A stretch of DNA of 33,748 nt from an uncultured Gammaproteobacteria bacterium. Lineage in GTDB: Bacteria; Patescibacteriota; Microgenomatia; Levybacterales; UBA12049. Each line of letters begins with the position of its first letter. The stretch's first letter is position 1. The notes beneath the pieces were generated by a model. It was not told the DNA's origin, ran no database searches, and was given only the letters and a program-made list of their open reading frames with translations. The position numbers were made by a program, and so were the translations under genes. Location of the stretch: contig CAYYAC010000002.1 of NCBI GenBank assembly GCA_964469995.1, forward strand, positions 1 through 33,748, given 5' to 3'. Below, piece after piece: positions 1 to 20,887 of the stretch.

Positions 1-387
1 TTGTAAGTCATCTTTATCTAGTTTATTTTTTTCTTTTATTTCAATAATTTTGCATCGTGATATTACAGTTGGCAATAAAGAATTTTTGTTATCGATAGTT
101 ATAATTATTAATGTATTTTCAGGAGGCTCTTCTAAAATTTTTAAAAGAGAATTTTGAGCTTGGGTAGTTAAACTATTTGTTGTATTTATCAGAATTATCT
201 TAATTGGACTTTTTATCGGTTTAAGAAATAATCTTTTTTGAATTTCAATTATGTCTTGTATTCCAACAGCTTTTTCAAAATTATTAATGTCTTCGTCTAT
301 TGGATTAACTTTTTCCAGGCTTGAAATCTTTTTGATTTCTTCACGCACTTTTTCCTGATTTTTAGAAACAATTATTATGCTTTGCAT
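1..387 (-). CDS. holB: DNA polymerase III delta-prime-like clamp-loader subunit, C-terminal part cut by window edge
   Basis: Minus-strand frame is open from ATG 387 to base 1; it is absent from the ORF track because it runs off the window. Translation MQSIIIVSKNQEKVREE...TTQAQNSLLKILEEPPENTLIIITIDNKNSLLPTVISRCKII carries the LLK.LEEPP box and SRC motif of delta-prime. There is no P-loop before them. Confidence 0.55.
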   Translation of the reverse strand, partial: MQSIIIVSKNQEKVREEIKKISSLEKVNPIDEDINNFEKAVGIQDIIEIQKRLFLKPIKSPIKIILINTTNSLTTQAQNSLLKILEEPPENTLIIITIDNKNSLLPTVISRCKIIEIKEKNKLDKDDLQ

Positions 388-390
388 GTG

Positions 391-420
391 TTGACATTTT
401 GAGTTGCTTCTAGCTATGAT
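391..420 (+). promoter_or_regulatory. sigma-70-like promoter of the pilB operon
   Basis: TTGACA 391-396, 18-nt spacer, TATGAT 415-420. In-frame ATG 428 lies 7 nt downstream with no SD. Confidence 0.5.
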
Positions 421-2149
421 AAATGCAATGCCCGATGTTCAAACCATTAATAATAATCAGACTTTAAGCGATGCTCTCCTTGCGTCTCATGCTATAACTC
501 AAGAGCAGTATAACGAAATAAAGGTTAAAAGCGCAAGCCAGGGAGTTTCTGAAGAAGAGATAATTAAAGCATCTAATTTTGTTACGGAAGATAAAATTAC
601 AGAGGCAAAGGCTAAGCTTTTAGGAATTCCCTTTGTGTCTTTAGATTCTGCTTCTTTTTCTCCTCAGGCCTTGAGTTTTGTTCCTCGCGCCGTTGCGGAA
701 AGATTTTCCCTAATCCCCTTTTTCTATGACGACAACACAAAAGTTCTATCTGTTGCAATGGCAAATCCTGTAGATTTGTCAGCTGTTGAATTTGTAAGCC
801 AAAAAACAGGGCTCACGATTAAAACTTTTGCGGCAATTCCTGCTGAAGTTGTAAGGGCTATAAACCAACAGTATAGGCAAGAACTAGTCGGTGAAGTTGG
901 AGCAGCTCTTAAAGAAACTGAAGATTTTAATAAGACCCGTACTGTTGACAGTACGCAAATTGCGCAGATTATAAAAGAAGCTCCAATTGCAAAGATAGTT
1001 GCAACTATTCTTGAGTATGCAGTAACAAGCCGCGCATCAGATGTACACATAGAACCTCAGGAAGACAGAATTAGGGTGCGTTATAGAATTGATGGAATTT
1101 TATATGACAAATTATCTTTGCCAAAAAATGTACAAGAGGCTGTTATTTCAAGAATAAAGATTCTTTCCGACATGAAAATAGATGAACACAGAACTCCTCA
1201 GGACGGCCGTTTCAATTTTAAAGTAGAAAAAGATGAAGTTGATCTTCGTGTATCTTCTATTCCAAATGTTTATGGAGAAAAAATAGTTATGAGGCTTCTT
1301 AGAAAATCTGGAGGAATTCCAACTTTGGAAGATTTAGGGCTTAATGGACCTGCTCTTAAAAGTCTTGAAACATCAATGCTTAGGCCCCACGGAATAATTA
1401 TTGTTTGTGGTCCGACAGGTTCTGGAAAAACCACAACTTTGTATGCAGTTTTGGCAAAACTTAACACAACGCGTGTTAATATTATGACTTTGGAAGACCC
1501 TGTTGAGTATCAAATTCAAGGTATTAATCAAGTTCAAATAAATCCTGGTGTTGGGCTTACTTTTGCAACGGGACTTAGGGCATTTTTAAGACAAGACCCA
1601 AACATTATTCTGGTTGGTGAAATTAGAGATCAAGAAACAACGGACTTGGCTATTCAAGCCGCACTTACAGGACATTTAGTCTTTTCAACTCTCCATACTT
1701 CAGATGCAGCAGGAGCTCTGCCCCGTCTTATTGATTTGGGTGCTGAAAATTTTCTTTTGTCTTCAACGATGAATGCAATTTTGGGACAAAGAATTGTTAG
1801 AAAAGTATGTCCTACTTGTAAAGAAGCATATAGTCCTCCTCCACAGATTTTAGAGGAATTAAAAAATGTACTTGGCAATCTTTTTCCTTCCACCCCGGAT
1901 ATTAAAATTTATAAAGGAAAAGGATGCGATCAATGTGGCAATTCAGGATATTTTGGCAGAATTGGTATTTTTGAAGTACTTCCTGTTAGCTCAAAAGTTG
2001 CAACTTTAGTTCTTGAAAAACAAGATAGTCAGGTAATTCAGAAAGAAGCTGTAGCGGAGGGAATGATAACAATGATGCAGGACGGTTTTCTTAAAGTTTT
2101 GCAAGGAATAACAACTCCGGAAGAAGTTCTTAGAGTTGCTCAGGAATAA
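404..2149 (+). CDS. pilB: type IV pilus assembly ATPase PilB (GspE family)
   Basis: N-terminal GspE_N-like region, Walker A GPTGSGKTTT, and tetracysteine CPTC...CDQC typical of PilB/GspE. Start is ambiguous (TTG 404, ATG 416, ATG 428); 428 fits the promoter geometry. Confidence 0.9.
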   Translation: MLLAMINAMPDVQTINNNQTLSDALLASHAITQEQYNEIKVKSASQGVSEEEIIKASNFVTEDKITEAKAKLLGIPFVSLDSASFSPQALSFVPRAVAERFSLIPFFYDDNTKVLSVAMANPVDLSAVEFVSQKTGLTIKTFAAIPAEVVRAINQQYRQELVGEVGAALKETEDFNKTRTVDSTQIAQIIKEAPIAKIVATILEYAVTSRASDVHIEPQEDRIRVRYRIDGILYDKLSLPKNVQEAVISRIKILSDMKIDEHRTPQDGRFNFKVEKDEVDLRVSSIPNVYGEKIVMRLLRKSGGIPTLEDLGLNGPALKSLETSMLRPHGIIIVCGPTGSGKTTTLYAVLAKLNTTRVNIMTLEDPVEYQIQGINQVQINPGVGLTFATGLRAFLRQDPNIILVGEIRDQETTDLAIQAALTGHLVFSTLHTSDAAGALPRLIDLGAENFLLSSTMNAILGQRIVRKVCPTCKEAYSPPPQILEELKNVLGNLFPSTPDIKIYKGKGCDQCGNSGYFGRIGIFEVLPVSSKVATLVLEKQDSQVIQKEAVAEGMITMMQDGFLKVLQGITTPEEVLRVAQE

Positions 2150-2152
2150 AAT

Positions 2153-3226
2153 ATGGATACAAACATACAACAGTTGTTGCAATTTACAATTCAAAACAAT
2201 TCATCAGATTTGCATCTTCTAGCTGGAATCCCTCCTGCTATAAGGATTGACGGCGCGCTAGTTTATGTTCCAAATTATCCCGCTCTCTCTAAGGAACAGA
2301 TTGAGCAAATGATTTTTTCACTTCTCTCCCCTACCCAAAAGCAACTTTTTCTTGCAAATAAGGAGCTAGACTTTTCTTTTGGTTTTGGCGGAGGAGTTTA
2401 TGGAGATAAAGGAAGATTTAGGGTAAACCTTTATTATCAAAGAGGCCTAGCAAGCGGAGCTTTTAGATTTTTGCCTCCTGTTATTAAAACAATTGAAGAT
2501 TTGGGACTTCCAAAAATTGCACACAACTTTGCATCTTTGCGTCAGGGATTTGTTTTAGTAACAGGTCCTACGGGACACGGAAAATCCAGTACTTTAGCTG
2601 CAATCATAAATGAAATAAATCTAACTCGTGCAACAAATATATTAACTATTGAAGATCCAATTGAATATATTTATCCAAACGGAAAAAGTATAATTTCTCA
2701 GCGTGAAATGGGCTCTGACACTCATTCCTGGACACTTGCTTTAAAGTCTGCACTGCGTGAAGATCCGGATGTAGTTTTAGTTGGGGAAATGAGAGATCCA
2801 GAAACAATATCTTCCGCTATTACGGTTGCTGAAACAGGACATTTGGTTTTTTCAACGCTTCATACAAATTCTGCATCTCAAACAATTGACAGAATGATTG
2901 ATTCTTTTCCGGCATATCAGCAGCCTCAGATTAGAGCGCAATTGGCTGCAACTCTTAAAGGAGTAATTTCACAGCGTCTTTTGCCAAAAATAAACGGAGG
3001 AAGAGTTCCTGCTGTTGAAATTCTTATTGGAACTCCAGCGCTTGCATCTAACATAAGAGAAGGAAAAACACATCTTATTGATTCTGTTATTCAGACTTCA
3101 GCGGATGTTGGAATGATTACCCTTGAGGCATCTTTGGCGCAACTTGTGCTCGCTGGGAGCATTAGTCTTGATATGGCAAAAAGTTATGCAATTCATCAGG
3201 AAGAATTATTGAGGTTGGTGGGATAA
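2153..3226 (+). CDS. pilT: twitching-motility retraction ATPase PilT
   Basis: 357 aa with Walker A GPTGHGKSST, an IRIDG motif near the N-terminus, no GspE_N domain, and PilT-typical size. Follows pilB after 3 nt. Confidence 0.85.
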   Translation: MDTNIQQLLQFTIQNNSSDLHLLAGIPPAIRIDGALVYVPNYPALSKEQIEQMIFSLLSPTQKQLFLANKELDFSFGFGGGVYGDKGRFRVNLYYQRGLASGAFRFLPPVIKTIEDLGLPKIAHNFASLRQGFVLVTGPTGHGKSSTLAAIINEINLTRATNILTIEDPIEYIYPNGKSIISQREMGSDTHSWTLALKSALREDPDVVLVGEMRDPETISSAITVAETGHLVFSTLHTNSASQTIDRMIDSFPAYQQPQIRAQLAATLKGVISQRLLPKINGGRVPAVEILIGTPALASNIREGKTHLIDSVIQTSADVGMITLEASLAQLVLAGSISLDMAKSYAIHQEELLRLVG

Positions 3227-3227
3227 C

Positions 3228-4433
3228 ATGAGACTTTCTTATAAAGCAATTGATAAGGAAGGAAAAGTTTCCCTGGGTCTTATAGAAGCAAAAGATGTTA
3301 ATGAGGCAGTTGTATATTTAAGAACGCGGGAACTTATTCCTATAACAGTAAAGAAAAAAGACAAAAGCAAGATTATGGAAATGATTCCTTTTATTCAGGG
3401 ATCAAAATCTGCAGATCTTATTTTCTTTACAAGACAATTGTCTTCAATGCTTACCTCCGGACTTACTCTCGTGCGTTCTCTTGAAATTCTAAAACAGCAA
3501 GTTCAAGGCGTCTATATGTTAGAAGTCATGGAGGGCGTTATTGCAGATATTGAAGGAGGGTCTTCTTTTTCTCTGGCTATTGCAAAATATCCAGCTATGT
3601 TTTCTTCAATCTATGTTTCCATTATTAAAACCGCAGAAGAATCAGGGCTTTTGGATAAAACACTTCTCCGGCTTGCAGATAATCTTGAAAAACAAGCAAA
3701 ACTTAGAAGTTCTATAAAATCCGCTCTTATGTATCCTATTATTGTTGTTATTCTTATGGTTGTCGTTGTTATTATTATGATGCTCTTTGTTATTCCTCAG
3801 CTTTCAGTCCTCTACGAGAATTTAAATATTCCACTCCCCTTGCCTACTCAAATTATTGTTAATATGTCAAAGTTTATAATAGTTTTTTGGCCGCTTGTTA
3901 TATTTTTGATAGTTGTTGCGATATCTTTGTATAGACGTTTTGCAAAATCTCCTTCTGGGAAGCTTTTTATAGATGCTACAGTCTTAAAACTTCCAGTGTT
4001 TGGAAAATTAATAAGACAAACTATACTTGCAGAATTTTCCAGAACTTTCGGGCTTTTGGTTGGAACAGGAACGCTGGTTGTTGATGCTCTTCTTCAGACT
4101 GCGGGAAGCGCAAATAACACTTTTTATAAAAACGCAATTATTGATATTTCTAAAAAAGTTGAAAAAGGAGTTACTGTCGGAGACGCTATGTCTTCTTCTA
4201 TACTTTTTCCGCCGCTTCTTGTCCAATTAACTAGAATTGGAGAACAGACTGGAAAATTAGATGATTCTCTTATCAAGGCATCTGAGTATTTTGAACGAGA
4301 GGTTGATCAGCAGGTTAAAACATTAACTACAGCAATGGAGCCTATAATCATGATATTTTTGGGTGTTGGCGTTGCTTTTCTTATTATTTCTGTTATCACG
4401 CCAATTTATAGTCTTATATCATCTATTCAGTAA
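3228..4433 (+). CDS. pilC: type IV pilus platform protein PilC (GspF family)
   Basis: 401 aa with two T2SSF-like repeats separated by hydrophobic segments. Position directly after pilB-pilT. Confidence 0.85.
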   Translation: MRLSYKAIDKEGKVSLGLIEAKDVNEAVVYLRTRELIPITVKKKDKSKIMEMIPFIQGSKSADLIFFTRQLSSMLTSGLTLVRSLEILKQQVQGVYMLEVMEGVIADIEGGSSFSLAIAKYPAMFSSIYVSIIKTAEESGLLDKTLLRLADNLEKQAKLRSSIKSALMYPIIVVILMVVVVIIMMLFVIPQLSVLYENLNIPLPLPTQIIVNMSKFIIVFWPLVIFLIVVAISLYRRFAKSPSGKLFIDATVLKLPVFGKLIRQTILAEFSRTFGLLVGTGTLVVDALLQTAGSANNTFYKNAIIDISKKVEKGVTVGDAMSSSILFPPLLVQLTRIGEQTGKLDDSLIKASEYFEREVDQQVKTLTTAMEPIIMIFLGVGVAFLIISVITPIYSLISSIQ

Positions 4434-4447
4434 TTAATTGTTCCCAC

Positions 4448-4478
4448 TTGACAACATGTTTTCAAATATGGTTATACT
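4448..4478 (+). promoter_or_regulatory. sigma-70-like promoter in front of the pilin gene
   Basis: TTGACA 4448-4453, then TTATAC/TATACT at 4472-4478 (18-19 nt spacer). ATG 4491 is 12 nt downstream with no SD. Confidence 0.45.
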
Positions 4479-4490
4479 AATAATATCTAG

Positions 4491-5066
4491 ATGAAAAGAC
4501 TGCTCACACGTTTTAAATCAAATGCTGGTTTTACCCTCATAGAACTTCTGGTTGTTATAGGTATTTTGGGTGTTCTAGCTTCTGCTTTAGTTGCAACTAT
4601 TGACCCTTTTGAGCAGTTGAACAAAGCTCAGGATGCTAATGTTAAAAACGCCTCTGTAGAATTTTTAAATTCAAACATAAGATACTTTACAACGCACAAT
4701 GCAATGCCATGGTTTGATTCAGCAGACGGAGGAACAAATTGTTATTCAACAACTACTTTGACTCAAATTTCCCTTTTGCAATTAAACAATAATTCCACCA
4801 CAACTGACCTTGGCTGTATGAAAGCTTTAATAGATGAAGGAGAATTAAAGCAGGGATTTGCAACATTTAACGGATTGAGCAAGATATTTGTAACAAACCC
4901 AAATCCACAGACTCCAGATGATCCAAACAGCGTTATTGCTTGCTATAAACCAATCTCTAAATCAGGGCAAAAAGATCCATTAGCTAAATATGCTCAAGAC
5001 GGTTCAGCTGGAACAACTTGCATATCTGCGGGTGGAGCAACACCTTGCTATTGGTGTGCACAGTAG
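4491..5066 (+). CDS. type IV pilin, candidate major pilin
   Basis: Class III signal MKRLLTRFKSNAG|FTLIELLVVIGILGVLA with Glu at +5. 191 aa, paired Cys in the C-terminal half. It has its own promoter and sits first among the pilin genes. Confidence 0.8.
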   Translation: MKRLLTRFKSNAGFTLIELLVVIGILGVLASALVATIDPFEQLNKAQDANVKNASVEFLNSNIRYFTTHNAMPWFDSADGGTNCYSTTTLTQISLLQLNNNSTTTDLGCMKALIDEGELKQGFATFNGLSKIFVTNPNPQTPDDPNSVIACYKPISKSGQKDPLAKYAQDGSAGTTCISAGGATPCYWCAQ

Positions 5067-5075
5067 AATAACCTC

Positions 5076-5828
5076 ATGCTAATTTTTTCTCTTTTGATTT
5101 TTATTCTAGGACTTTTCGTGGGATCTTTCTTGAATGTCTTTGTAGATAGAACAAAAAACGGAGAAAGCTTTATTAAAGGAAGGTCTCATTGTGATAATTG
5201 CAATAAAGATATTGCTTGGTACGATTTAATACCAGTTTTTTCTTTTCTATTTCTTAAAGGTAAATGCAGATATTGCAAGAAGTCTTTAAGTTTTTACTAC
5301 CCCATTGTAGAGGTTTCTACAGGAGTTTTATTCCTGTCTACTGTCTTTTTCCTAAATTTAGGAAGTGAGTTTTCTTTTTTGATGATGTACTGGCTGCTAC
5401 TTGCGTCTTTTTTGCTAATTACATTTTTTATTGATTTGAAATATGGGATAATTCCAGACAAGATAATTTATCCCGCTGTTTTAATGGCTTCAATTTTTAT
5501 TTTAATAGTTAGTCCTCATGCCTTTCTCTACTATCTTCTCTGCGGGCTAGGAGCGGCTATTTTTATGTATCTGCTTTCTTTTTGGGGAATGGGAGGAGGA
5601 GATATAAAGCTGTCTTTTTTAATGGGGATTGTTTTAGGTTTTCCTAAAATTATTTTAGCATTGTATCTGGCATTCTTGACAGGAGCTGTGGCTGGGGTCA
5701 TACTTATTTTATGGAGAAAAAAGAAACTTCGGGGGAGCACAATTCCCTTTGGTCCTTTTCTAGTTTTGGGAACTTTTCTAAGTCTTTTCTTTTGGGAATT
5801 CTTCATAAAACTTCTCCCAATCTTCTAA
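5076..5828 (+). CDS. pilD: prepilin peptidase / N-methyltransferase PilD (A24 family)
   Basis: Polytopic 250 aa with CDNC...CRYC zinc motif and the GGGDIKL aspartyl box. Confidence 0.85.
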   Translation: MLIFSLLIFILGLFVGSFLNVFVDRTKNGESFIKGRSHCDNCNKDIAWYDLIPVFSFLFLKGKCRYCKKSLSFYYPIVEVSTGVLFLSTVFFLNLGSEFSFLMMYWLLLASFLLITFFIDLKYGIIPDKIIYPAVLMASIFILIVSPHAFLYYLLCGLGAAIFMYLLSFWGMGGGDIKLSFLMGIVLGFPKIILALYLAFLTGAVAGVILILWRKKKLRGSTIPFGPFLVLGTFLSLFFWEFFIKLLPIF

Positions 5829-7048
5829 AAAGAAAAAAAGGCTTTACCTTAGTAGAGCTAGTGGTGGTTCTTGGTATGATTGCTGTCCTTATAACAATAG
5901 TAATTGCTATGCTAAACCCCTTAAGGCAAATTGCAAAATCAAAAGATGCACTTCGTCAACACGATTTACAGCAAATTAAAAATGCCTTGGATATTTATTA
6001 CAATGACCATAATTGCTATCCAGATTCTGTTCCGTTTGGGGGGCAATGGAAAGAAGGGTCAACTGTATATATGCAGAAGGTTCCTCAGGACCCGGATTTT
6101 GCAAAAAGTGTATATGTTTACGAAACTGATACTGCAAACTTGTGCCCCCAGTGGGCTGTATTGTTTGCTAACATGTCTGCAGCGAATGGCAGTACGCTGC
6201 TCTGTGGATTAGCTGCTTTACAAAGCTGTGTTCCTACAAATTATCAGCCTTCGTATGCATGTACACTCCTTGGAAATGTTGACTGCAATTTTATAAGTTC
6301 TAACATAGTTAGCTTCCCAACTCCTACTCCATCTACTACATCAACACCAACTCCTTCATCAGTTCCAGAACAAAAGAACTTAGTATTTGTCACAAGCACT
6401 TCATATAGCGGTAATTTAGGAGGATTATCTGGGGCAGACAATAAATGCCGGGAATTGGCTATATCTGCTGGACTTCAGGGTACATACAAAGCATGGCTTA
6501 GCTATACTGTAACTTCAGCTAAAAGTAGGATTAGTCATTCTAATTACCCTTATGTAAATGTAATTGGAGAGACTATTGCAAATAATTGGAATGATCTTAC
6601 GGATGGAAGTTTGGATAATTCTATAAATATAGATGAGACTGGCAAGAGACTTACTGCAAATGTAGGAGCGTGGACTGGAACAACATCTGACGGAAGCATA
6701 TCTAATGTATCAGGAATTAATGACAACTGTAACAGTTGGACAAACGCAACAAACAATAATGGTGTATACGGATGGGCTAATCATCCCTTGGGAGCTTTGT
6801 CGGTAGGTCCTGGATGGACATCGGCCTCACACGTAAATTGCGCTGTCTCTGATTCTTTCCCTCTGCATCTCTATTGTATTCAGCAGGATTTTTCAAATAC
6901 TCCAACGCCTACCCCTACGCCATCCCCTACTCCGAGCGGTTTCTGTTCTGCTGATTATGATTGCACAGGAAATCCCGCAAGATGTAATGTTGTACGCACT
7001 GGTCGTGGTCACTATTGTTCTTCTAATTGTGATGGAGTATGTCTATGA
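5792..7048 (+). CDS. modular pilin: class III signal + GspG-like core + P/T linker + endostatin/DUF1554-like domain + P/T linker + 6-Cys module
   Basis: KRKKG|FTLVELVVVLGMIAVL; DLQQIKNALDIYYNDHNCYP...VPQDP; LVFVTSTSYSGNLGGLSGADNKC...LHLYCIQQ; C-terminal GFCSADYDCTGNPARCNVVRTGRGHYCSSNCDGVCL. Start uncertain: ATG 5711 overlaps pilD by 118 nt, TTG 5792 by 37 nt, and there is no ATG/GTG next to the signal. Confidence 0.8.
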   Translation: MGILHKTSPNLLKRKKGFTLVELVVVLGMIAVLITIVIAMLNPLRQIAKSKDALRQHDLQQIKNALDIYYNDHNCYPDSVPFGGQWKEGSTVYMQKVPQDPDFAKSVYVYETDTANLCPQWAVLFANMSAANGSTLLCGLAALQSCVPTNYQPSYACTLLGNVDCNFISSNIVSFPTPTPSTTSTPTPSSVPEQKNLVFVTSTSYSGNLGGLSGADNKCRELAISAGLQGTYKAWLSYTVTSAKSRISHSNYPYVNVIGETIANNWNDLTDGSLDNSINIDETGKRLTANVGAWTGTTSDGSISNVSGINDNCNSWTNATNNNGVYGWANHPLGALSVGPGWTSASHVNCAVSDSFPLHLYCIQQDFSNTPTPTPTPSPTPSGFCSADYDCTGNPARCNVVRTGRGHYCSSNCDGVCL

Positions 7049-7536
7049 GAAAAGGATTTACTTTAATTGAGCTTTTGATTGTCGTTGCAATACTATCAAT
7101 TCTTTCCGTAGGAGCGATTACAATTCTAAATCCCTCTCTTCAGTTTGCAAAAGCTAACGATGCAAGAAGAAAAGCGGATCTTGCTCAGATTCAAAGAGGT
7201 CTTGAAACTTATTATAATGACAATGGAAAATATCCGCCAACTGCTCCTAGCTTTAGAATAAAGGGGCTTGACGGGAACGCTGTTAATTGGAATTCCTCAT
7301 GGCAGCCATATATTGATGTTTTGCCTAAAGATCCAAGCCCATCTAAGAATTATTTATATTTTTCACCCCTAGATGGACAGTCCTACTTCCTTTATGCTAG
7401 CCTAGATAGAGGGACTGATCCAAGTGTATGTAATGAGGGCGCACCTTGTGAGAGCTTGGTGTCTAACGATATAGAAAGTAATGCATGCGGAGGTGTGTGT
7501 AATTTTGGATTAACTAGTCCAAATGTAAGTCCATGA
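7045..7536 (+). CDS. GspG-like pilin / pseudopilin
   Basis: MRKG|FTLIELLIVVAILSIL; DLAQIQRGLETYYNDNGKYP...LPKDP; 4 C-terminal Cys. GGAG lies 7 nt before ATG 7045, and ATGA overlaps the upstream stop. The track start 7039 is possible. Confidence 0.8.
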   Translation: MRKGFTLIELLIVVAILSILSVGAITILNPSLQFAKANDARRKADLAQIQRGLETYYNDNGKYPPTAPSFRIKGLDGNAVNWNSSWQPYIDVLPKDPSPSKNYLYFSPLDGQSYFLYASLDRGTDPSVCNEGAPCESLVSNDIESNACGGVCNFGLTSPNVSP

Positions 7537-8027
7537 TTAAAAAATATTTAAATAAAAAGGGCTTTACTCTTGTTGAACTTCTTATTGTTGTCTCTATTAT
7601 TGGAGTGCTAACTACTCTTCTTATGGCAAATTTCATAGGAGTAAGGCAGCGCGCTAGAGACGCTCAGAGAAAATCCGATTTACGTCAAATTCAGTCTGCT
7701 CTTGAATTATACCGCGCAGACCAAGGTTCATATCCTACAACAAGCTCTCTTTCCGGACCTAACTCTGTTGGTAATTGCGACAGCGGAACTTCTATAAAAA
7801 GTCCCAACAATTGTTCCGTATCAACGTATATGACAACTGTTCCTAAAGATCCAATGGGCTCTTTGTATTTTAATAGTGGAAATTATTATTTTTCAGGTGA
7901 TGGGACAACGTATACTCTTGGAGCTTGTCTTGAGAATGCAAGCGATTCACAGGGGACATTAAGCTCTCCCAGCGGAAATGATGATTACTGCTCATCAAAA
8001 GTATACTACGTTCTAAACAATCCATGA
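7533..8027 (+). CDS. GspG-like pilin / pseudopilin
   Basis: MIKKYLNKKG|FTLVELLIVVSIIGVL; DLRQIQSALELYRADQGSYP...VPKDP; ATGA overlap. Confidence 0.8.
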   Translation: MIKKYLNKKGFTLVELLIVVSIIGVLTTLLMANFIGVRQRARDAQRKSDLRQIQSALELYRADQGSYPTTSSLSGPNSVGNCDSGTSIKSPNNCSVSTYMTTVPKDPMGSLYFNSGNYYFSGDGTTYTLGACLENASDSQGTLSSPSGNDDYCSSKVYYVLNNP

Positions 8028-8488
8028 ACAGAAGCTTAGGTTTTACCCTTATTGAGCTTAGTGTTGTAATTTCAATTATGGCAGTTTTAAGCACTATGGG
8101 AATTGCAGCATTTGTAAATTACAGCAGAACACAATCTCTTCAAAATGCAGCCTACGATTTAATAACAGTTTTAAATCTTGCTAAATCACGTTCTTTTTCT
8201 CAGGTGAAACCCCCAGGCTGTACAGTTTTAGATGGGTACAAAGTTTCCCTGTCAAATTCCGATAATAGTTATAAAATTGAGGCGATTTGTTTGGGAAATG
8301 CTTTCGGAACGGTTAGCAAAGATTTGCCGCAAAATATAAGTATATCTTCTGATTCTAGCTGTACATCTTCTTCTTCATTCTTTTATCCCATAATCTCAGG
8401 AGGAGTCAGCGGAAGCGGATGTATTGTTCTTTCAGGATATAATCAAAAAAAAATAATAACCGTAGACATGCTGGGGACTGTTAAATGA
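8024..8488 (+). CDS. minor pilin (GspH/FimT-like)
   Basis: MNRSLG|FTLIELSVVISIMAVL; 154 aa; ATGA overlap on both sides. Confidence 0.7.
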   Translation: MNRSLGFTLIELSVVISIMAVLSTMGIAAFVNYSRTQSLQNAAYDLITVLNLAKSRSFSQVKPPGCTVLDGYKVSLSNSDNSYKIEAICLGNAFGTVSKDLPQNISISSDSSCTSSSSFFYPIISGGVSGSGCIVLSGYNQKKIITVDMLGTVK

Positions 8489-8958
8489 AAAATCAAAAGG
8501 GACAAACATTAGTTGAGTCGTTAATTGCTTTAGCTGTGGCTGTTGTTATTGTTTCGGCAATCGTTGTGTCTGTAATATCCTCTTTAAGTAATGCTCAATA
8601 TACAAAAAATCAAAATTTAGCTAATCAATATGCATCTCAAGGAATGGAAGTTGTCAGAGGAATAAGAAATACAAGCTGGGATACAATTTCGTCTTACAAC
8701 GGAGATTATTGTTTACCTGAAAATCAGACTACTCTTATTGCAAAAGGAACAGGTTGTAGTCCAAAGCAAAATGTTGCAGGGGTGTTTCTTAGAGAAGTTA
8801 ATATTGATCACAATTCTCCATCTTGTGATCAGACATTGGGGATTACTGTGAATGTTTCCTGGTCTGATGGGAAATGCACAGATAGCTCTAATTCTTTTTG
8901 CCACGTTGTTTCTCTTGTTTCATGTTTTGGAAACAACAACGCTGTCCCAACGCCATGA
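8485..8958 (+). CDS. minor pilin (PilV/GspI-like), atypical +1 residue
   Basis: MKNQKG|QTLVESLIALAVAVVIV: Gly at -1 and Glu at +5, but Gln instead of Phe at +1. ATGA overlaps. Confidence 0.65.
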   Translation: MKNQKGQTLVESLIALAVAVVIVSAIVVSVISSLSNAQYTKNQNLANQYASQGMEVVRGIRNTSWDTISSYNGDYCLPENQTTLIAKGTGCSPKQNVAGVFLREVNIDHNSPSCDQTLGITVNVSWSDGKCTDSSNSFCHVVSLVSCFGNNNAVPTP

Positions 8959-9530
8959 TAAAACAATTTTTAAGATTTAATAATCAAAAAGGATTTACTC
9001 TCGTAGAGCTGCTTGCCGTAATAATGGTTATTGGGGTTGTTGGCGGAGTAACTGGCGCAATTTTAATATCTTCGCTTATTGGTTCTAATAAAACTAATTC
9101 CTTGGACAATGTTAGGCAAAACGGAAATTATGCTCTTTTGCAGGTTTCAAAAGCAATTGAATTTTCCAGGAATTTCTATGGAGTGAGCACAGATGGGGTA
9201 AATTACATAACAGACTGTACTCAGCCTCAGGTGTCTCCTACTCCAACGCCAACGCAATATAACTACGTAAAGATTGTTTCTTCTAATGGACAATCTGTTG
9301 TTTTTTCGTGCGGTGCAAACACAATAGCATCAAACAGCGCGTCTCTTCTAGATGTTTCAAGCGTTGCAACTACTGCGTGTTTTTTTAGTTGTTCTCAGGA
9401 CAATCTAATATTGCCTCCAACAATAGGTTTTAATTTCAGTCTTTCTAGTTCCAAAGGAGGAAATTTTGTAGAAAATAATACCTCTGTCTCTTTTAGTACC
9501 TCAGTGACGCTTAGAAACCTAAATAGATAG
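8955..9530 (+). CDS. minor pilin (PilW/GspJ-like)
   Basis: MIKQFLRFNNQKG|FTLVELLAVIMVIGVV. ATG 8955 forms an ATGA overlap with the upstream stop, so the track start 8898 is an unlikely extension. Internal SPTPTPTQ stretch. Confidence 0.7.
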   Translation: MIKQFLRFNNQKGFTLVELLAVIMVIGVVGGVTGAILISSLIGSNKTNSLDNVRQNGNYALLQVSKAIEFSRNFYGVSTDGVNYITDCTQPQVSPTPTPTQYNYVKIVSSNGQSVVFSCGANTIASNSASLLDVSSVATTACFFSCSQDNLILPPTIGFNFSLSSSKGGNFVENNTSVSFSTSVTLRNLNR

Positions 9531-9539
9531 CAAGTCTTG

Positions 9540-9569
9540 TTGACATGTAAGCTTGTGCTTTGCTACGCT
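9540..9569 (+). promoter_or_regulatory. internal sigma-70-like promoter
   Basis: TTGACA 9540-9545, 18-nt spacer, TACGCT 9564-9569, then 6 nt to ATG 9576. Confidence 0.35.
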
Positions 9570-9575
9570 TTAAAT

Positions 9576-10361
9576 ATGCTTAGAAAAAACGAAAGTGGTC
9601 AGGTTTTGCTGGCCATTGTTCTTATTATGGTAATTGGGCTTACTGTTGGTCTTTCTCTTGCTTCTCGTAGTATAACAAGTCTTAGAACATCGGAAGAAGA
9701 AATAAACTCCCAGCAAGCCCTATCTGCTGCAGAAGCAGGGATTGAACAAGTTTCAAAAACTAATTCAAACATACAAAATGGTATATTTTCAAATCGTACG
9801 TCTTACAATACTTCAATAGCTCCTGTTTCAGGAAATGACTTCTTGCTTAATGGAGGAAGTGTAATTTTGAAAGATGATAGCGCAGATATATGGCTTTCTG
9901 ATTATTCAACAGATTCTGCTAGGCTTTATCAAAATCCATGGAGCGGAAGTTTAAACATATATTGGGGAAAAGGCAGCGACGGGTGTACTCAGGCGGCTCT
10001 TGAAATAATTGTAATTTCTGGAAGCAAAGCAAGCCCTATATCTAGAAAATATGCTTTTGACCCATGCATAACAAGAAGCAGCACTAATCATTTTACTCTT
10101 GTTTCATCTGGGGGAACAGCTGCTGGAGTTAGTTTTCCATTTGGTACAACCATAAACATTAGCTCTGGGCTGATTGCAAGAGTAATTCCTCTCTATTTTG
10201 ATGCTCCCATAGGTCTTGTTGGAAGCGTTGATCTTCCTTCTCAGGGGTCTTTAATTACGTCTGTTGGAAATTCAGGAACAACAAGCAGAAAAATTACTGT
10301 TTTTCAGGGATTTCCAACTCTTCCCTCTGAATATTTCCCATATGGACTTTTTTCTCCATAG
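9576..10361 (+). CDS. PilX-like pilus component (PilX_N-type N-terminus)
   Basis: MLRKNESGQVLLAIVLIMVIGLTVGLSLASRSITSLRTSEEE...AEAGIEQ resembles PilX N-terminal domains (no Glu at +5). Track start TTG 9537 is rejected in favour of ATG 9576. Confidence 0.6.
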   Translation: MLRKNESGQVLLAIVLIMVIGLTVGLSLASRSITSLRTSEEEINSQQALSAAEAGIEQVSKTNSNIQNGIFSNRTSYNTSIAPVSGNDFLLNGGSVILKDDSADIWLSDYSTDSARLYQNPWSGSLNIYWGKGSDGCTQAALEIIVISGSKASPISRKYAFDPCITRSSTNHFTLVSSGGTAAGVSFPFGTTINISSGLIARVIPLYFDAPIGLVGSVDLPSQGSLITSVGNSGTTSRKITVFQGFPTLPSEYFPYGLFSP

Positions 10362-10367
10362 AATTTT

Positions 10368-11405
10368 ATGAATAATAAAAAATCTTTCGGGCTTGATATA
10401 GGTACAACAACTATTAAAATGGTTTCGCTTTCTCCTGGCAAAGATGGTTTTTTTGTGCTTAACGCTTCAATAATTGCTCCTATGCCGGCTAAGGGAATGA
10501 TATCTGATTCTCCCTTAGATGAAGAAGAGATGGCACAGGCAATAAAAAAAGCAGTTATTGATTCTGGAATTGAAGGAAAGTTTGTAAACATTTCTCTTCC
10601 TGAAACTAAAATCTATACAAAGGTAATTGAAATGCCTGTTTTGTCAGATAAAGAACTTTCATCTGCAATATATTGGGAGGCAGAGCAGTATATTCCCATA
10701 CCGCTTTCAAATATAACTTTCGTTTGGAGTGTGCTTAGAAGGCCAAACAAGCCTACTCCGCAAGACAAAATGGAGGTGCTTATGGTTGGTGCCCCAACTG
10801 TTCTTGTTAATAAATATAAGAGGGTTATAGCAATGGCTGGGCTTTCTATAAATTCAATGGAAACTCAGATTTTATCTGCGATAAGAGCATTAAATTCAGG
10901 TCCATCTGCTCCGCCGTCTCTTATTATTGATATTGGAGAGCTTAGTACCTCTCTGGCAATAGTCAAGGACGGTATTATGGTATTTACATATTCAACCCCA
11001 ACAGGAGGGGGAGCTATTAGCCGCGCAATTGCATCTAACTTTGGATTAGGAGAAAGAGAAGCTGAGGAATATAAAAAAACATACGGATTTGCAGATAGGG
11101 TGTTTGGTGGAAAGATAAGCCTTGCAGCTCAGCCGATTCTAATGACGATTTTAACAGAAGTAAAAAAAGCGCTATCATTTTATGGGCAAAAGTATAAAGA
11201 TAACCCAATAAAACAAATTATTCTTTCTGGAGGCACTGCAAGGCTTCCCGGGATTAATATTTTCTTTGCAAACAATTGTGGAATAGAAACTGTTGTTGCA
11301 AATCCATGGAAGAGGTTTATAAATCAGCAAATTCCAAAACAAATTTTAGATAATGGGGCAGATTATGTAATTGCTGCGGGTCTTGCAGAAAGAGATTATG
11401 AATAA
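10368..11405 (+). CDS. pilM: type IV pilus assembly protein PilM (actin-like ATPase fold)
   Basis: 345 aa; FGLDIGTTTIKMV phosphate-1-like motif and ILSGGTARLPGI. Followed by pilN/pilO-like genes. Confidence 0.8.
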   Translation: MNNKKSFGLDIGTTTIKMVSLSPGKDGFFVLNASIIAPMPAKGMISDSPLDEEEMAQAIKKAVIDSGIEGKFVNISLPETKIYTKVIEMPVLSDKELSSAIYWEAEQYIPIPLSNITFVWSVLRRPNKPTPQDKMEVLMVGAPTVLVNKYKRVIAMAGLSINSMETQILSAIRALNSGPSAPPSLIIDIGELSTSLAIVKDGIMVFTYSTPTGGGAISRAIASNFGLGEREAEEYKKTYGFADRVFGGKISLAAQPILMTILTEVKKALSFYGQKYKDNPIKQIILSGGTARLPGINIFFANNCGIETVVANPWKRFINQQIPKQILDNGADYVIAAGLAERDYE

Positions 11406-11931
11406 TAACATCAATTTAGTATCCCCTGATATAAATAATCTATCTAAGCAGGCAAAAATTCTTAGAAGATTTAAAATTATCGCAACGGTTATTGTTATTG
11501 GGGTTGGGATTACCTCTATTGCCTTATTTTTGCTTAATAGGATTTTTTCTCCTCAGGCAATTATTGTTCAGCAGGACTCAGTTAGGGCGAGTATCGCAGC
11601 TTTGCAGACAAAACATGCAAAGATATTGCTTCTTAACCAAAAACTTAATGATATTTTTAAAATACTTAAAAGTAGAACAAACTATGATTTAGTTTTGGCA
11701 AATATATTAAATCAGCCCGGAAATGATATATCTGTCACTTCCCTATCTTTGAATAAGAAGAAAATTTCTTTGGTTGTTTCCTCTTTTTCTTTAATATCAA
11801 TCAATAATTTTATAGACATGCTAAAGGGTATGGTAGATAAAAAACAATTGCTTAAAAACGTAACAATAAATAATCTTTCTTTAAATGGTAAGTTTGGATA
11901 TTTTCTAAGTTTGGACATAGAACTATTATGA
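11398..11931 (+). CDS. pilN: PilN-like bitopic pilus alignment protein
   Basis: N-terminal INLVSPD (compare the PilN INLLP motif), a single TM, and position after pilM. ATG 11398 overlaps the pilM stop by 8 nt; the track start 11371 is possible. Confidence 0.6.
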   Translation: MNNNINLVSPDINNLSKQAKILRRFKIIATVIVIGVGITSIALFLLNRIFSPQAIIVQQDSVRASIAALQTKHAKILLLNQKLNDIFKILKSRTNYDLVLANILNQPGNDISVTSLSLNKKKISLVVSSFSLISINNFIDMLKGMVDKKQLLKNVTINNLSLNGKFGYFLSLDIELL

Positions 11932-12671
11932 ACAAAGACGTTAGCATAAGTATAAAAACATTTAAAGATTTGTACATTTCATACAAGCCTTATATTACTC
12001 CATCTGTTATGGTTTTAATTTCATTTCTTCTTATTATTTTTGCAATTTTTCCGCAATTTCAGGATTTTACAACAACCCTTTCACAAAGAGAAAATGCGAC
12101 TCTTCAGCTGCAGACGTTAAGCAAAAATCTGGTAATTTTAAGATCAATTGATGAGCCTACATTAAATTCCAATTTAGCAGTTTCTCTTAAGGCTCTTCCT
12201 TCAAATAAAGATTTTGAAAGTATTTTGACAACAATTTCATCTGTTGCAAATAAATCTGGGGTAGCTTTGGGGAATTTCCAATTTAAAGTGGGAGATCTCT
12301 CAAAGGCAGATGTAATTACGGGTCAATTTCCTTCACTTTCCGTCAATGTTGTTATAAATAGTGCACCTTCTGGAACGATAAATTTTTTGACAAATATGGC
12401 GCAGTCTTTACCTGTTTCGGAAATAAAATCAATTGACTTGAATGCCTCAAGTGCTAATATATTTTTGAATTTCTATTACAAATCTGCAGGAGGTGCAAAA
12501 GTTTCTCCAGATGCGCTTATTATTCCCATATCATCAAAACAGCAAGAATTACTGAATCAGTTATCATCTTGGGATGGCGGATTATCTTCTGCTCCCTTGA
12601 TAGTGCCTGTAGAAAGCTTGACTTCTCCAACGAGCACTCCGTCGTCGTCTGCTGCTAGTTTGCCTCTTTAA
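11928..12671 (+). CDS. pilO: PilO-like bitopic protein with Ser/Thr/Pro-rich tail
   Basis: Single TM followed by a coiled-coil-like stretch, and position after pilN with an ATGA overlap. C-terminus is SLTSPTSTPSSSAASLPL. Confidence 0.5.
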   Translation: MNKDVSISIKTFKDLYISYKPYITPSVMVLISFLLIIFAIFPQFQDFTTTLSQRENATLQLQTLSKNLVILRSIDEPTLNSNLAVSLKALPSNKDFESILTTISSVANKSGVALGNFQFKVGDLSKADVITGQFPSLSVNVVINSAPSGTINFLTNMAQSLPVSEIKSIDLNASSANIFLNFYYKSAGGAKVSPDALIIPISSKQQELLNQLSSWDGGLSSAPLIVPVESLTSPTSTPSSSAASLPL

Positions 12672-20476: not shown

Positions 20477-20887
20477 TTATCTTCTTTGCGAACCGTCTGT
20501 GGAATACTTACGTACTCTTTTTACAACATGTTCTCTTTTTCTTCTATCTAAAATTTCTCCTGCTGCTGCAGCTCCAGAAACGATTGCTAAAATTGGCCCC
20601 ATTATCACAAAAGAAGCTGCTGTTTGTTCTAAGCTTCCGTCTCTTTTATCATCCGCAAATTTTTGATCAATTGCAGAAATCTCGTCTCTTATTTGATTTT
20701 TTCTTGTTTCATCTTGTTCATTTTTCTCTGAAGTCTGCAATTTTGTCTTTTGAGTTGCCCAGTTAATATGGTCTGCTTGAGCTCCATAATTTTCGGACGC
20801 ATACTTAAATCCAATTCCGGTAGATATGATTGCAGCGCCTGCAACGGATGACAAAAGTATTTCTTTTCCTGTTGGCATATGCCACAT
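20477..20887 (-). CDS. hypothetical membrane protein (two hydrophobic segments flanking a charged loop)
   Basis: ORF only, no recognisable family. ATG 20878 fits promoter TTGACA(20913-20908)-16-TAGAAT(20891-20886)-7 better than ATG 20887. Confidence 0.5.
   Translation of the reverse strand: MWHMPTGKEILLSSVAGAAIISTGIGFKYASENYGAQADHINWATQKTKLQTSEKNEQDETRKNQIRDEISAIDQKFADDKRDGSLEQTAASFVIMGPILAIVSGAAAAGEILDRRKREHVVKRVRKYSTDGSQRR

What the first reader, a model, noticed from the sequence alone, without database searches (positions are those of the whole stretch)
5792..7048. Pilin fused to an endostatin/DUF1554-like domain and a 6-Cys module: candidate pilus-displayed adhesin
Seen in sequence: a class III signal (KRKKG|FTLVELVVV) and a GspG-like pilin core (DLQQIKNALDIYYNDHNCYP...VPQDP) are followed by a PTPTPSTTSTPTPSS linker (about 6317-6361). 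Next come about 175 aa (about 6371-6896) reading LVFVTSTSYSGNLGGLSGADNKCRELAISAGLQGTYKAWLS ... YPYVNVIGETIANNWNDLTDGS ... AWTGTTSDG ... NDNCNSWTN ... HVNCAVSDSFPLHLYCIQQ. A second TPTPTPTPSPTPS linker and a terminal C-x5-C-x6-C-x10-C-x3-C-x3-C module follow. From memory, the middle block lines up motif for motif with the collagen XVIII endostatin domain (LVALN..[81 protein letters not shown]) and with the bacterial DUF1554 family known from Leptospira. Inference: a lectin-fold binding domain on a flexible stalk attached to a pilin would be presented on the pilus, which fits a host- or surface-attachment role in a small-genome episymbiont. I know of no characterised pilin with this architecture.
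Basis: partly seen in the sequence, partly recalled or inferred. Interest (0 to 1): 0.75.

Follow-up and report, generated by a model that had tools for sequence, protein, structure and literature searches.

The report
Pilus subunit carrying an endostatin-like domain
A pilus subunit from an ultra-small Levybacteria-type (CPR) bacterium carries a domain related in sequence and predicted fold to animal endostatin, which makes it an uncharacterised example of the known "modular pilin" way of putting a binding domain on a pilus.

Summary
ORF 5792-7048 (+) encodes:
- a prepilin signal (KRKKG|FTLVE) and a pilin core
- a Pro/Thr linker
- a 174-aa endostatin/DUF1554 domain
- a second Pro/Thr linker
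- a 6-Cys C-terminal mini-domain

The endostatin link is now tested. Pfam Endostatin and DUF1554 both score above their gathering cut-offs. A family profile hits solved endostatins at E=5e-14 with all four cysteines aligned. A confident AlphaFold model (pLDDT 92) matches only endostatin structures (TM 0.70-0.78).

The gene lies directly after pilD in a complete type IV pilus operon. About 115 relatives share the pilin core, and many are about 240 aa: core, linker and Cys module only. Syntenic orthologues sit after pilD. The window protein is therefore this carrier pilin with an endostatin module inserted in its linker. A relative has a ConA-like lectin domain in the same place, and others carry beta-helix, fn3 or Ig-like modules.

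This is a new variant of a known kind, the modular pilins (S. sanguinis PilB/PilC, Saccharibacteria PilX2). About 31 other pilin-DUF1554 fusions were found, but none with this three-part layout. Adhesin function and ligand remain inferred. The domain is acidic and lacks endostatin's zinc site and two loop arginines.

The parts
5792..7048 (+). Whole gene for the three-module prepilin (418 aa from TTG 5792). Alternative start ATG 5711; the public gene call starts at GTG 5864 and loses the signal peptide.
5792..5842 (+). Class III (prepilin) leader ending KRKKG. The predicted PilD cleavage is between G17 (5840-5842) and F18 (5843-5845), with Glu at mature position +5.
   Evidence: N_methyl 26.4 bits, cut-off 21.2; TIGR02532 22.6 bits, cut-off 16.3
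5843..6313 (+). Pilin module: a long N-terminal alpha-1 helix followed by a beta-sheet head with 6 Cys. It belongs to a CPR 'carrier' pilin family that is encoded directly after pilD.
   Evidence: pLDDT above 90 for most of aa 20-175, helix 20-73; alpha-1 matches solved pilins
6314..6364 (+). Pro/Thr/Ser linker 1 (FPTPTPSTTSTPTPSSV).
6365..6886 (+). Endostatin-fold / DUF1554 module (aa 192-365). Its four Cys (219, 313, 350, 362) align with endostatin's four Cys. The module is acidic (pI about 5.1).
6887..6940 (+). Pro/Thr linker 2 (DFSNTPTPTPTPSPTPSG). Its DNA is repeat-related to linker 1.
6941..7045 (+). C-terminal 6-Cys mini-domain (C-x5-C-x6-C-x10-C-x3-C-x3-C). It is conserved at the C-terminus of 47 other members of the pilin family and has no Pfam or PDB match.
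   Evidence: (pLDDT 86-93)
5076..5828 (+). pilD prepilin peptidase, whose 3' end overlaps the start of the fusion gene.
   Evidence: A24_N_bact 109.5 bits, Peptidase_A24 54.9 bits
4491..5066 (+). 191-aa prepilin between pilC and pilD, the likely major pilin.
   Evidence: first 60 aa nearly identical in the L087 orthologue
404..4433 (+). pilB (404-2149), pilT (2153-3226) and pilC (3228-4433): the assembly and retraction ATPases and the platform protein.
7039..10361 (+). Five further prepilins (7039-7536 and 7533-8027 are GspG-like; then 8024-8488, 8485-8958, 8898-9530) and a pilin-like ORF (9537-10361). None has a recognisable extra domain.
10368..12671 (+). pilM (10368-11405), a pilN-like gene (11371-11931) and a pilO-like gene (11928-12671).

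Best explanation
The gene encodes a modular type IV pilin of a Levybacteria-type CPR bacterium.

**Shown**
- A prepilin signal and pilin core are followed by a flexible Pro/Thr linker, an endostatin-fold DUF1554 domain, a second linker and a 6-Cys mini-domain.
- The four cysteines of the endostatin-fold domain align with endostatin's four; I infer that they form its two nested disulfides.
- The gene lies directly after pilD in an operon that also holds pilB, pilT, pilC, pilM, pilN-like and pilO-like genes and six other prepilin genes.
- The pilin core and Cys module belong to a conserved carrier pilin family. The endostatin module sits in that family's linker.

**Inferred mechanism**
1. PilD cleaves after Gly17.
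2. The hydrophobic alpha-1 helix, with Glu5, takes the subunit into the pilus built by the neighbouring machinery. It is probably a low-abundance subunit at or near the tip, beside the 191-aa major pilin.
3. The linker (about 5-6 nm if extended) holds the 18-kDa module away from the filament, where it binds a surface ligand. For an episymbiont the likely target is a component of the host cell envelope.
4. PilT-driven retraction then pulls the two cells together.

The ligand is unknown. It should not be assumed to be heparin-like or a matrix protein.
For: **Pilin identity**
- N_methyl and TIGR02532 score above their cut-offs.
- The mature N-terminus aligns from residue 1 with solved pilins (Geobacter PilA, GspG 5wda).
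- The AlphaFold model shows helix 20-73 and a beta-sheet head, with pLDDT above 90 for most of aa 20-175.
- pilD is adjacent and the pilus machinery is complete.

**Endostatin module**
- Pfam Endostatin scores 35.8 bits for the whole protein and 38.4 for the domain alone (cut-off 29.4). DUF1554 scores 30.3 and 33.3 bits (cut-off 27.5).
- PDB endostatin hits: E=1.4e-7 with the single sequence and E=4.8e-14 with the family profile, all four Cys aligned.
- The domain model has pLDDT 91.9 and pTM 0.89.
- The five top Foldseek hits are all endostatin domains (E from 8e-11 to 1e-9, TM 0.70-0.78); nothing else is significant.

**Carrier family and insertion**
- In the 17-sequence alignment, the relatives run from pilin core through linker to Cys module with no intervening domain.
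- Orthologues sit directly after pilD, in the same gene order, in L001, L087 and L085.
- P0254 has a Laminin_G_3 lectin-type domain in the same nested position.
- Other family members carry beta-helix, fn3 or Ig-like modules.

**Adhesin precedent**
- S. sanguinis PilB (vWA module) and PilC (lectin module) (PMC8179133, PMC9934059).
- TM7x PilX2, needed for host binding (PMC11623550).
- Leptospira endostatin-like Len proteins, which bind laminin, fibronectin and factor H (PMC2063517).

**Local context**
This is the only pilin in the operon with a recognisable extra domain.
Against: - There is no direct evidence that the protein enters a pilus, where it sits in the filament, or what it binds.
- The domain differs from endostatin in functional features. 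It is acidic (pI 5.1, against 9.3 for endostatin). The His-rich N-terminal zinc segment is missing. The two arginines of the GMRGIRGAD loop are Leu and Ser here.
- It is not a Len orthologue: NF047482 scores 24-28 bits against a cut-off of 300. Ligand transfer from either characterised relative is therefore unsafe.
- The pilin core resembles GspG, which is a major-type pilin, not the tip minor pilins GspH to GspK. Tip location is therefore a guess.
- The full-length model gives no reliable arrangement of the domains relative to each other (pTM 0.46).
Confidence: 0.62

Rival explanations
1. The protein is a membrane-anchored surface protein and not a pilus subunit. The prepilin helix serves only as a membrane anchor or a short pseudopilus stub, and the endostatin module is displayed at the cell surface on its Pro/Thr stalk.
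For: The closest DUF1554 modules (52-54% identity: P0049, P0046) belong to non-pilin proteins. P0046 has an N-terminal transmembrane anchor followed by a Pro/Thr linker, so simple surface tethering is how the nearest modules are displayed. The core resembles GspG pseudopilins.
Against: Glu5 and a canonical cleavage site are kept. The gene lies inside a pilus operon with pilT. The family keeps a fixed position after pilD. A 17-residue linker is short for crossing a cell wall.
Confidence: 0.13
2. The protein is pilus-displayed, but the endostatin module is not a host adhesin. It could bind the cell's own envelope or matrix, environmental polymers or mineral surfaces, or it could have an enzymatic or signalling role.
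For: In non-pilin proteins DUF1554 is found with dockerin, Laminin_G_3, PKD, phosphodiesterase and fn3 domains, the partners typical of extracellular polymer-binding or degrading proteins. The domain is acidic and lacks endostatin's known binding features. No host is known for Levybacteria.
Against: The only tested bacterial relatives are adhesins. Modular minor pilins tested so far mediate attachment (PMC8179133). No catalytic motif or enzyme-family hit was found.
Confidence: 0.15
3. The protein is the major subunit of its own fully decorated ('bottle-brush') pilus, not a rare subunit.
For: The core is of the GspG or major-pilin type. Its alpha-1 helix shares the pattern of the 191-aa pilin (FTL[IV]EL...[ND]P). 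The flexible linker could in principle allow the module to sit on every subunit (my inference).
Against: A separate 191-aa pilin with a highly conserved N-terminus lies in the usual major-pilin position, between pilC and pilD. The operon has only one pilB/pilC set. The family's C-terminal cargo varies from none to about 800 aa, which is typical of accessory subunits.
Confidence: 0.08
4. The architecture is an assembly artefact: a chimeric join at the repetitive Pro/Thr-coding DNA placed an unrelated DUF1554 gene fragment inside a pilin gene.
For: The two linkers share short DNA repeats (6317-6354 and 6902-6933), which can confuse assemblers. No other protein in 262 relatives has exactly this three-part layout.
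Against: It would need two in-frame joins that restore the same pilin family on both sides. GC3 of the insert (0.28) matches the core (0.31) and the neighbouring genes (0.21-0.30). An independent relative has the same nested layout with a different insert, seen on two separate assemblies (P0254; L085 and L086).
Confidence: 0.02

Closest known systems
Modular type IV pilins: Streptococcus sanguinis PilB (vWA module) and PilC (ConA-like lectin module) (Raynaud et al. 2021, PMC8179133; Shahin et al. 2023, PMC9934059)
   Same: Both have an N-terminal pilin module joined by a linker to a binding domain that is not specific to pilus biology. Both are encoded in the pilus locus of a bacterium without an outer membrane. 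The proposed role, presenting an adhesin on the filament, is the same.
   Different: The module here has the endostatin/DUF1554 fold, which has not been studied on any pilus. The linkers are long and Pro/Thr-rich. The module is nested between the pilin core and a conserved 6-Cys C-terminal mini-domain. No experimental data exist.
Saccharibacteria (TM7x) minor pilins PilX2 (beta-propeller) and PilX1 (jelly-roll) (PMC11623550)
   Same: Both are CPR/Patescibacteria pilins with C-terminal accessory domains. PilX2 is required for efficient host binding, which is the role proposed here.
   Different: The phylum differs (Levybacteria against Saccharibacteria), as do the carrier pilin and the module fold. 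PilX1 and PilX2 lack a canonical PilD signal, whereas this protein has one.
Collagen XVIII / XV endostatin (NC1) domains (PDB 1koe, 1bnl, 1dy0, 1dy1, 1dy2)
   Same: The fold matches (TM 0.70-0.78). Four cysteines align. The GxxGGxxGAD-x2-C, AWLS-like, W-T and LYC-x-E motifs are shared.
   Different: Identity is about 21%. The domain is acidic, not basic. It has no N-terminal His-rich zinc site. The loop arginines are replaced. It is attached to a pilin and not to a collagen trimer.
Leptospira interrogans LenA-LenF endostatin-like outer-membrane proteins (DUF1554; PMC2063517)
   Same: Both are bacterial surface-exposed DUF1554 domains. The Len proteins are the only bacterial members with tested function, which is binding of laminin, fibronectin and factor H.
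   Different: This is not an orthologue: NF047482 scores 24-28 bits against a cut-off of 300. The Len proteins are outer-membrane (lipo)proteins of a vertebrate pathogen. This protein is a pilin of an environmental CPR bacterium.
Other uncharacterised pilin-DUF1554 fusions in metagenomes (for example P0131, P0160, P0044, P0053)
   Same: Each has a prepilin, a Pro/Thr linker and a DUF1554 module. About 31 were found across several pilin classes, mostly from Patescibacteria.
   Different: In most of them DUF1554 is the extreme C-terminus, ending LYCFEQ. None keeps the 6-Cys module after it. Their DUF1554 modules are only 39-48% identical to this one.

Membership tests
Type IV pilin / class III signal peptide proteins (PF07963, TIGR02532) | A short basic leader ending in Gly, then Phe or Met at +1, a hydrophobic stretch and Glu at +5. 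| tested here: met
   KRKKG|FTLVEL. N_methyl scores 26.4 bits (cut-off 21.2) and TIGR02532 scores 22.6 bits (cut-off 16.3).
Type IV pilin / class III signal peptide proteins (PF07963, TIGR02532) | A long N-terminal alpha-1 helix followed by a globular beta-sheet head ('lollipop' shape). | tested here: met
   The AlphaFold model has helix 20-73 and then four strands, with pLDDT above 90 for most of aa 20-175. Alpha-1 aligns from residue 1 with solved pilins. The whole-model Foldseek hit to C. difficile PilA1 was not significant (E=0.23).
Type IV pilin / class III signal peptide proteins (PF07963, TIGR02532) | Prepilin peptidase and assembly machinery encoded nearby. | tested here: met
   pilD is adjacent and overlapping. 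pilB, pilT, pilC, pilM and pilN/pilO-like genes are in the same operon.
Type IV pilin / class III signal peptide proteins (PF07963, TIGR02532) | Cleavage and N-methylation by PilD, and incorporation into a filament. | not testable with these tools
   This needs proteomics of sheared pili or N-terminal sequencing.
Modular pilins (sensu Raynaud et al. 2021) | A pilin module plus at least one extra domain that is not specific to pilus biology, joined by a linker. | tested here: met
   Pilin core, Pro/Thr linker, then a DUF1554/Endostatin domain.
Endostatin / DUF1554 domain superfamily (PF06482, PF07588) | Profile score above the curated gathering cut-off. | tested here: met
   Endostatin scores 35.8 bits for the whole protein and 38.4 for the domain alone (cut-off 29.4). 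DUF1554 scores 30.3 and 33.3 bits (cut-off 27.5).
Endostatin / DUF1554 domain superfamily (PF06482, PF07588) | Endostatin three-dimensional fold. | tested here: met
   The model has pLDDT 91.9. The five top PDB hits are all endostatins, with TM 0.70-0.78 and probability 1.00.
Endostatin / DUF1554 domain superfamily (PF06482, PF07588) | Four conserved cysteines forming two nested disulfides. | tested here: met
   C219, C313, C350 and C362 are invariant in the 44-sequence alignment and align with endostatin's four Cys. That they actually form bonds is inferred.
Animal endostatin proper (collagen XV/XVIII NC1) | N-terminal His-rich zinc site, a basic heparin-binding surface, and a location at the C-terminus of a collagen chain. 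| tested here: not met
   No His-rich N-terminal segment; a Pro/Thr linker is there instead. The pI is 5.1, against 9.3 for endostatin. The loop arginines are Leu and Ser. The carrier is a pilin. Which residues form the zinc and heparin sites is from my memory of the endostatin literature.
Leptospira LenA/LenB and LenF families (NF047482, NF047483) | Score above the NCBIfam equivalog cut-off. | tested here: not met
   24.3-28.6 bits against 300, and 20.3 bits against 400.
GspG major pseudopilin (TIGR01710, PF08334) | Score above the curated cut-offs. | tested here: not met
   TIGR01710 scores 37.7 bits against 88.85, and T2SSG scores 15.5 bits against 21. This is a resemblance only, although some family members pass T2SSG (P0260, 27.6 bits).
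Calcium-dependent C-type lectin domains | A significant fold or profile match to C-type lectin domains, and a carbohydrate-binding motif. | tested here: not met
   No Lectin_C hit in Pfam. The best C-type lectin structure, LOX-1, gave E=1.8 and TM 0.27-0.35. The viral C-type lectin-like hit gave E=0.77.

The most novel reading that the evidence does not exclude
The pilin encoded after pilD in Levybacteria and related Microgenomates may be a cassette-like display scaffold. The repetitive Pro/Thr-linker DNA between the pilin core and the 6-Cys cap would act as a recombination hot spot. Binding modules (endostatin/DUF1554, ConA-like lectin, beta-helix, Ig, fn3) would be swapped in there from other surface proteins. 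The module present would then set which host or surface the episymbiont can attach to. On this reading the endostatin fold is an ancient bacterial cell-surface recognition module, later used at the end of animal collagens. A bacterial collagen-like protein ending in DUF1554 (P0106) hints at that link.
Probability: 0.25. Interest if true: 0.65.

Novelty: new variant of a known kind. Interest (0 to 1): 0.45.

Why it matters
How CPR bacteria recognise and attach to their hosts is largely unknown outside cultivated Saccharibacteria. There, one accessory-domain pilin has been tied to host binding.

This locus offers a concrete, testable candidate in an uncultivated lineage. It is a single pilin with a well-predicted, disulfide-stabilised 18-kDa module that could be expressed alone and used as a probe to look for the host or ligand.

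The carrier-pilin pattern gives a simple way to mine CPR genomes for likely attachment determinants: the same core and position after pilD, with different inserted modules. Standard gene calls often cut off the signal peptide, and Pfam scores for relatives often fall just below threshold, so these proteins are under-annotated.

The finding also widens the known settings of the endostatin fold. Until now it had been studied only in animal collagens and Leptospira surface proteins.

Tried and rejected
- **Mixed alignments for full-length prediction.** Alignment A2 (whole hits) and A3 (pilin family plus trimmed DUF1554 fragments) were misaligned by MAFFT; the DUF1554 rows showed only 14-23% identity to the query. 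I dropped them and made separate domain (A4) and pilin-family (A5) predictions.
- **Foldseek with the full-length model against PDB.** No significant hit; the best was C. difficile PilA1 at E=0.23. The pilin fold assignment therefore rests on sequence and on the model's secondary structure.
- **Genome-collection scan with the pilin-family alignment.** It returned mostly generic GspG-like pilins from many phyla, matching only residues 10-110 or so. It did not help with taxonomy or synteny.
- **Source lookup for the window's own protein.** Nothing is on record. I inferred the taxon from PheS instead.
- **Close relative with PheS 85% identical (L088).** The contig ends at trmD, just short of the pilus operon, so the insertion could not be dated.
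- **6-Cys module.** No Pfam hit and no PDB sequence hit.
- **Viral structure library.** Nothing significant.
- **Promoter and terminator scan of 1-13000.** Counts were no higher than in shuffled sequence (46 against 39.8 +/- 6.1, and 7 against 9.0 +/- 3.4). It gives no information on expression level. Upstream regions show no clear ribosome-binding sites that would settle the start codon.
- **Foreign-DNA or chimera hypothesis.** Rejected on composition and family consistency.
- **Literature.** No paper links endostatin with pilins in a meaningful way. The term 'IPR011448' occurs in no paper's main text, so its identity with DUF1554 rests on my memory.
Full report

Yes. A single ORF on the + strand ends at 7046-7048. 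From TTG 5792 it encodes 418 aa, arranged as follows:
- **Leader:** MGILHKTSPNLLKRKKG, followed by FTLVEL.
- **Pilin core:** runs to aa 174.
- **Linker 1:** FPTPTPSTTSTPTPSSV (6314-6364).
- **Middle block:** 174 aa (6365-6886).
- **Linker 2:** contains TPTPTPTPSPTPS (6887-6940).
- **C-terminal module:** exactly C-x5-C-x6-C-x10-C-x3-C-x3-C (6941-7045).

The protein has 16 cysteines: 6 in the core, 4 in the middle block and 6 in the tail.

The start codon is uncertain.
- ATG 5711 gives a 44-aa leader, and TTG 5792 a 17-aa leader. Both overlap pilD, which ends at 5828.
- The public gene call (P0001, 394 aa) begins at GTG 5864, inside the alpha-1 helix, so it has lost the signal peptide.
- The start does not affect the mature protein.

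**2. The endostatin/DUF1554 claim**

It holds on every test I could run.
- **Pfam:** Endostatin (PF06482) scores 35.8 bits for the whole protein and 38.4 for the domain alone (cut-off 29.4). DUF1554 (PF07588) scores 30.3 and 33.3 bits (cut-off 27.5).
- **Single sequence against PDB:** mouse and human endostatin at E=1.4e-7 to 9e-6, and the collagen XV domain at 6e-4.
- **Family profile against PDB:** a profile of 44 bacterial domains (A4) reaches E=4.8e-14 over almost the whole domain. All four invariant cysteines align with endostatin's four.
- **Predicted fold:** an AlphaFold model built on A4 is confident (pLDDT 91.9, pTM 0.89). Its five top Foldseek hits in PDB are all endostatin domains (1dy1, 1bnl, 1koe, 1dy0, 1dy2; E from 8e-11 to 1e-9; TM 0.70-0.78; about 21% identity). 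The next hit, the C-type lectin-like LOX-1, is not significant (E=1.8).
- **Viral structures:** nothing significant.

The domain is therefore a true endostatin-fold member of the bacterial DUF1554 branch. Three limits apply:
- **Not a Leptospira Len orthologue.** NF047482 scores 24-28 bits against a cut-off of 300.
- **Endostatin's functional hallmarks are missing.** There is no His-rich N-terminal segment. The two arginines of the GMRGIRGAD loop are Leu and Ser. The pI is 5.1, against 9.3 for endostatin. The roles of those endostatin residues are from my memory of the literature.
- **"Lectin fold" is true only by structural classification.** No evidence here points to sugar binding.

**3. The pilin part and its context**

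- N_methyl and TIGR02532 pass their cut-offs.
- The mature N-terminus aligns from residue 1 with solved pilins.
- The full-length model shows a 54-residue alpha-1 helix and a beta-sheet head, with pLDDT above 90 for most of aa 20-175.
- GspG-type models score below threshold, so "GspG-like" is only a resemblance.

The gene lies in one tightly packed operon: pilB, pilT, pilC, a 191-aa prepilin, pilD, this gene, five further prepilins, a pilin-like ORF, pilM, a pilN-like gene and a pilO-like gene. No other pilin in the operon has a recognisable extra domain.

PheS from the window is 85% identical to a sequence named Candidatus Levybacteria, and unnamed hits reach 89%, so the organism is a CPR/Patescibacteria member.

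**4. What the relatives show**

Two searches together gave 262 related proteins, which I classified with small HMMs.

*(a) A carrier pilin family.*
- About 115 of the proteins share the pilin core, with 40-60% identity for the relatives checked by BLASTP.
- Many are 230-290 aa, built as signal, core, Pro/Thr linker and the same 6-Cys C-terminal module (47 by HMM).
- In the alignment, the window protein differs from these by one block of about 190 aa (the DUF1554 domain and a second linker) inserted within the linker.
- Orthologues occupy the same position directly after pilD, in the same gene order, in L001, L087 and L085. In L087 the flanking genes have diverged to a similar degree: pilD 58%, major pilin 52%, next pilin 71%, and this core 59%.

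*(b) Other cargo on the same family.*
- P0254 has a Laminin_G_3 (ConA-like lectin) domain in the same nested position, with the Cys module retained. It too is encoded directly after pilD.
- Others carry a Pel9A-like beta-helix, fn3 or Ig-like domains. Five more carry DUF1554, with or without additional domains.

*(c) DUF1554 on several pilin classes.* It is fused to GspG-like, GspH-like and other pilins, about 31 proteins in all. It is nearly always the extreme C-terminus, ending LYCFEQ. Only the window protein combines core, DUF1554 and Cys module.

*(d) Likely origin of this module.*
- The window's DUF1554 module is closest (52-54%) to modules of non-pilin proteins. One of the closest, P0046, is a CPR surface protein with an N-terminal membrane anchor and a Pro/Thr linker.
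- It is more distant (39-44%; rank 74-203 of 344) from the modules on pilins of its own family.
- This suggests independent acquisition by module shuffling. The identity differences are modest, so it is a suggestion and not proof.

A misassembly is unlikely. The sequence on both sides of the insert belongs to one family. The reading frame is kept. The insert's GC3 (0.28) matches the core (0.31) and the neighbouring genes (0.21-0.30).

**5. How it most likely works**

*Shown.* The architecture, the homologies, the operon context and the insertion relative to the family.

*Inferred.*
- PilD cleaves after Gly17.
- The alpha-1 helix, with Glu5, brings the subunit into the pilus assembled by the neighbouring machinery. 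It is probably a low-abundance subunit beside the 191-aa pilin. That pilin sits in the usual major-pilin position, and its first 60 residues are almost unchanged in L087.
- The Pro/Thr linker holds the 18-kDa disulfide-stabilised module away from the filament, where it can bind a surface ligand.
- PilT-driven retraction then draws the cells together.

*Precedents for the adhesin role.*
- S. sanguinis PilB and PilC (PMC8179133, PMC9934059).
- TM7x PilX2, whose deletion halves host binding (PMC11623550).
- Leptospira Len proteins, which are endostatin-like and bind laminin, fibronectin and factor H (PMC2063517).

The ligand cannot be carried over from endostatin or the Len proteins, for the reasons given in section 2. 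The 6-Cys module is predicted with confidence (pLDDT 86-93) but matches nothing known. Its role is open.

*Rivals.* I consider four: a membrane-tethered protein that never enters a pilus, a pilus-displayed module with a non-host ligand, a major subunit of a fully decorated pilus, and an assembly artefact. Each is listed with its evidence in the rival section.

**6. Comparison with what is known, and novelty**

The class is established. Raynaud et al. defined modular pilins and counted 1,219 proteins in 264 architectures. The most common extra domain there is PF13385 (Laminin_G_3), with 229 proteins. Their table also lists two proteins as IPR012902-IPR011448. I believe IPR011448 is DUF1554, but I could not verify that mapping here.

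No paper in the searchable library connects endostatin or DUF1554 with pilins.

I therefore rate this as a new variant of a known kind:
- **Module type:** uncharacterised on any pilus.
- **Layout:** nested three-part arrangement, not seen in any of the 262 relatives.
- **Family pattern:** a carrier pilin family that hosts different inserted modules at one site, which does not appear in the papers I searched.

It is not categorically new, and a pilus specialist would not be greatly surprised. Interest is 0.45.

**7. Limits**

No coordinates, PAE or multimer modelling were available, and no reads could be mapped. The function is untested. Tip versus body location in the filament is a guess.

Noticed in passing
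window 5792-5866; also P0254, P0023, P0060, P0177, P0260: Automatic gene calls for this pilin and several relatives start downstream of the real start. Here the call starts at GTG 5864, probably to avoid overlap with pilD, and so removes the class III signal peptide. Several relatives also score just under the Pfam DUF1554 cut-off (24-26 bits against 27.5). Pilin-DUF1554 fusions are therefore under-counted in domain-architecture databases.
   Followed up: partly
P0106 (384 aa; sequence): This bacterial secreted protein has collagen-like Gly-X-Y repeats followed by a C-terminal DUF1554/endostatin-like domain. That is the same order as in animal collagens XV and XVIII.
   Followed up: no
L085 2231-3676 (P0254) and L085 4828-7023: In a groundwater CPR genome (GCA_964364925.1), the pilin encoded after pilD has a Laminin_G_3 domain nested between the core and the 6-Cys module. 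A second, 731-aa pilin in the same operon also carries Laminin_G_3.
   Followed up: partly
L001 3270-7146: In the syntenic operon that carries P0009, a TMEM260-like gene (PF11028) and two family-2 glycosyltransferase genes lie between a pilin gene and pilD. This hints at pilin or linker glycosylation. The window has no such genes at that place. L001 also has a 330-aa pilin with an SdrD_B domain.
   Followed up: no
P0123-P0135 and others: Some very large proteins (up to about 3,000 aa) carry many tandem DUF1554 domains; up to 12 were counted by HMM. The domain is far more widespread in environmental bacteria than its Leptospira-centred description suggests: 32,663 representatives matched the full-length query (pilin core included) at E<=0.001, and 137 of the 262 proteins classified are non-pilin DUF1554 proteins.
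   Followed up: no
L003 2298-3141: A nucleotidyltransferase/HepT-like toxin-antitoxin pair lies between the pilin-DUF1554 gene P0028 and the downstream GspG-like pilin genes.
   Followed up: no
window 4491-5066 compared with L087 608-1150: The likely major pilin is almost identical over its first 60 residues between two genomes whose PilD proteins are only 58% identical, while its C-terminal half has diverged strongly. It ends in a Cys-rich CYWC motif.
   Followed up: partly
window 29285-30193 (-), 20477-20887 (-), 30679-31296 (-): Two ORFs (302 aa and 136 aa) have no Pfam match, and a third is a DUF5660 protein. They sit among housekeeping genes (thrS-like, infC, pheST, tig). I did not examine them further.
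   Followed up: no
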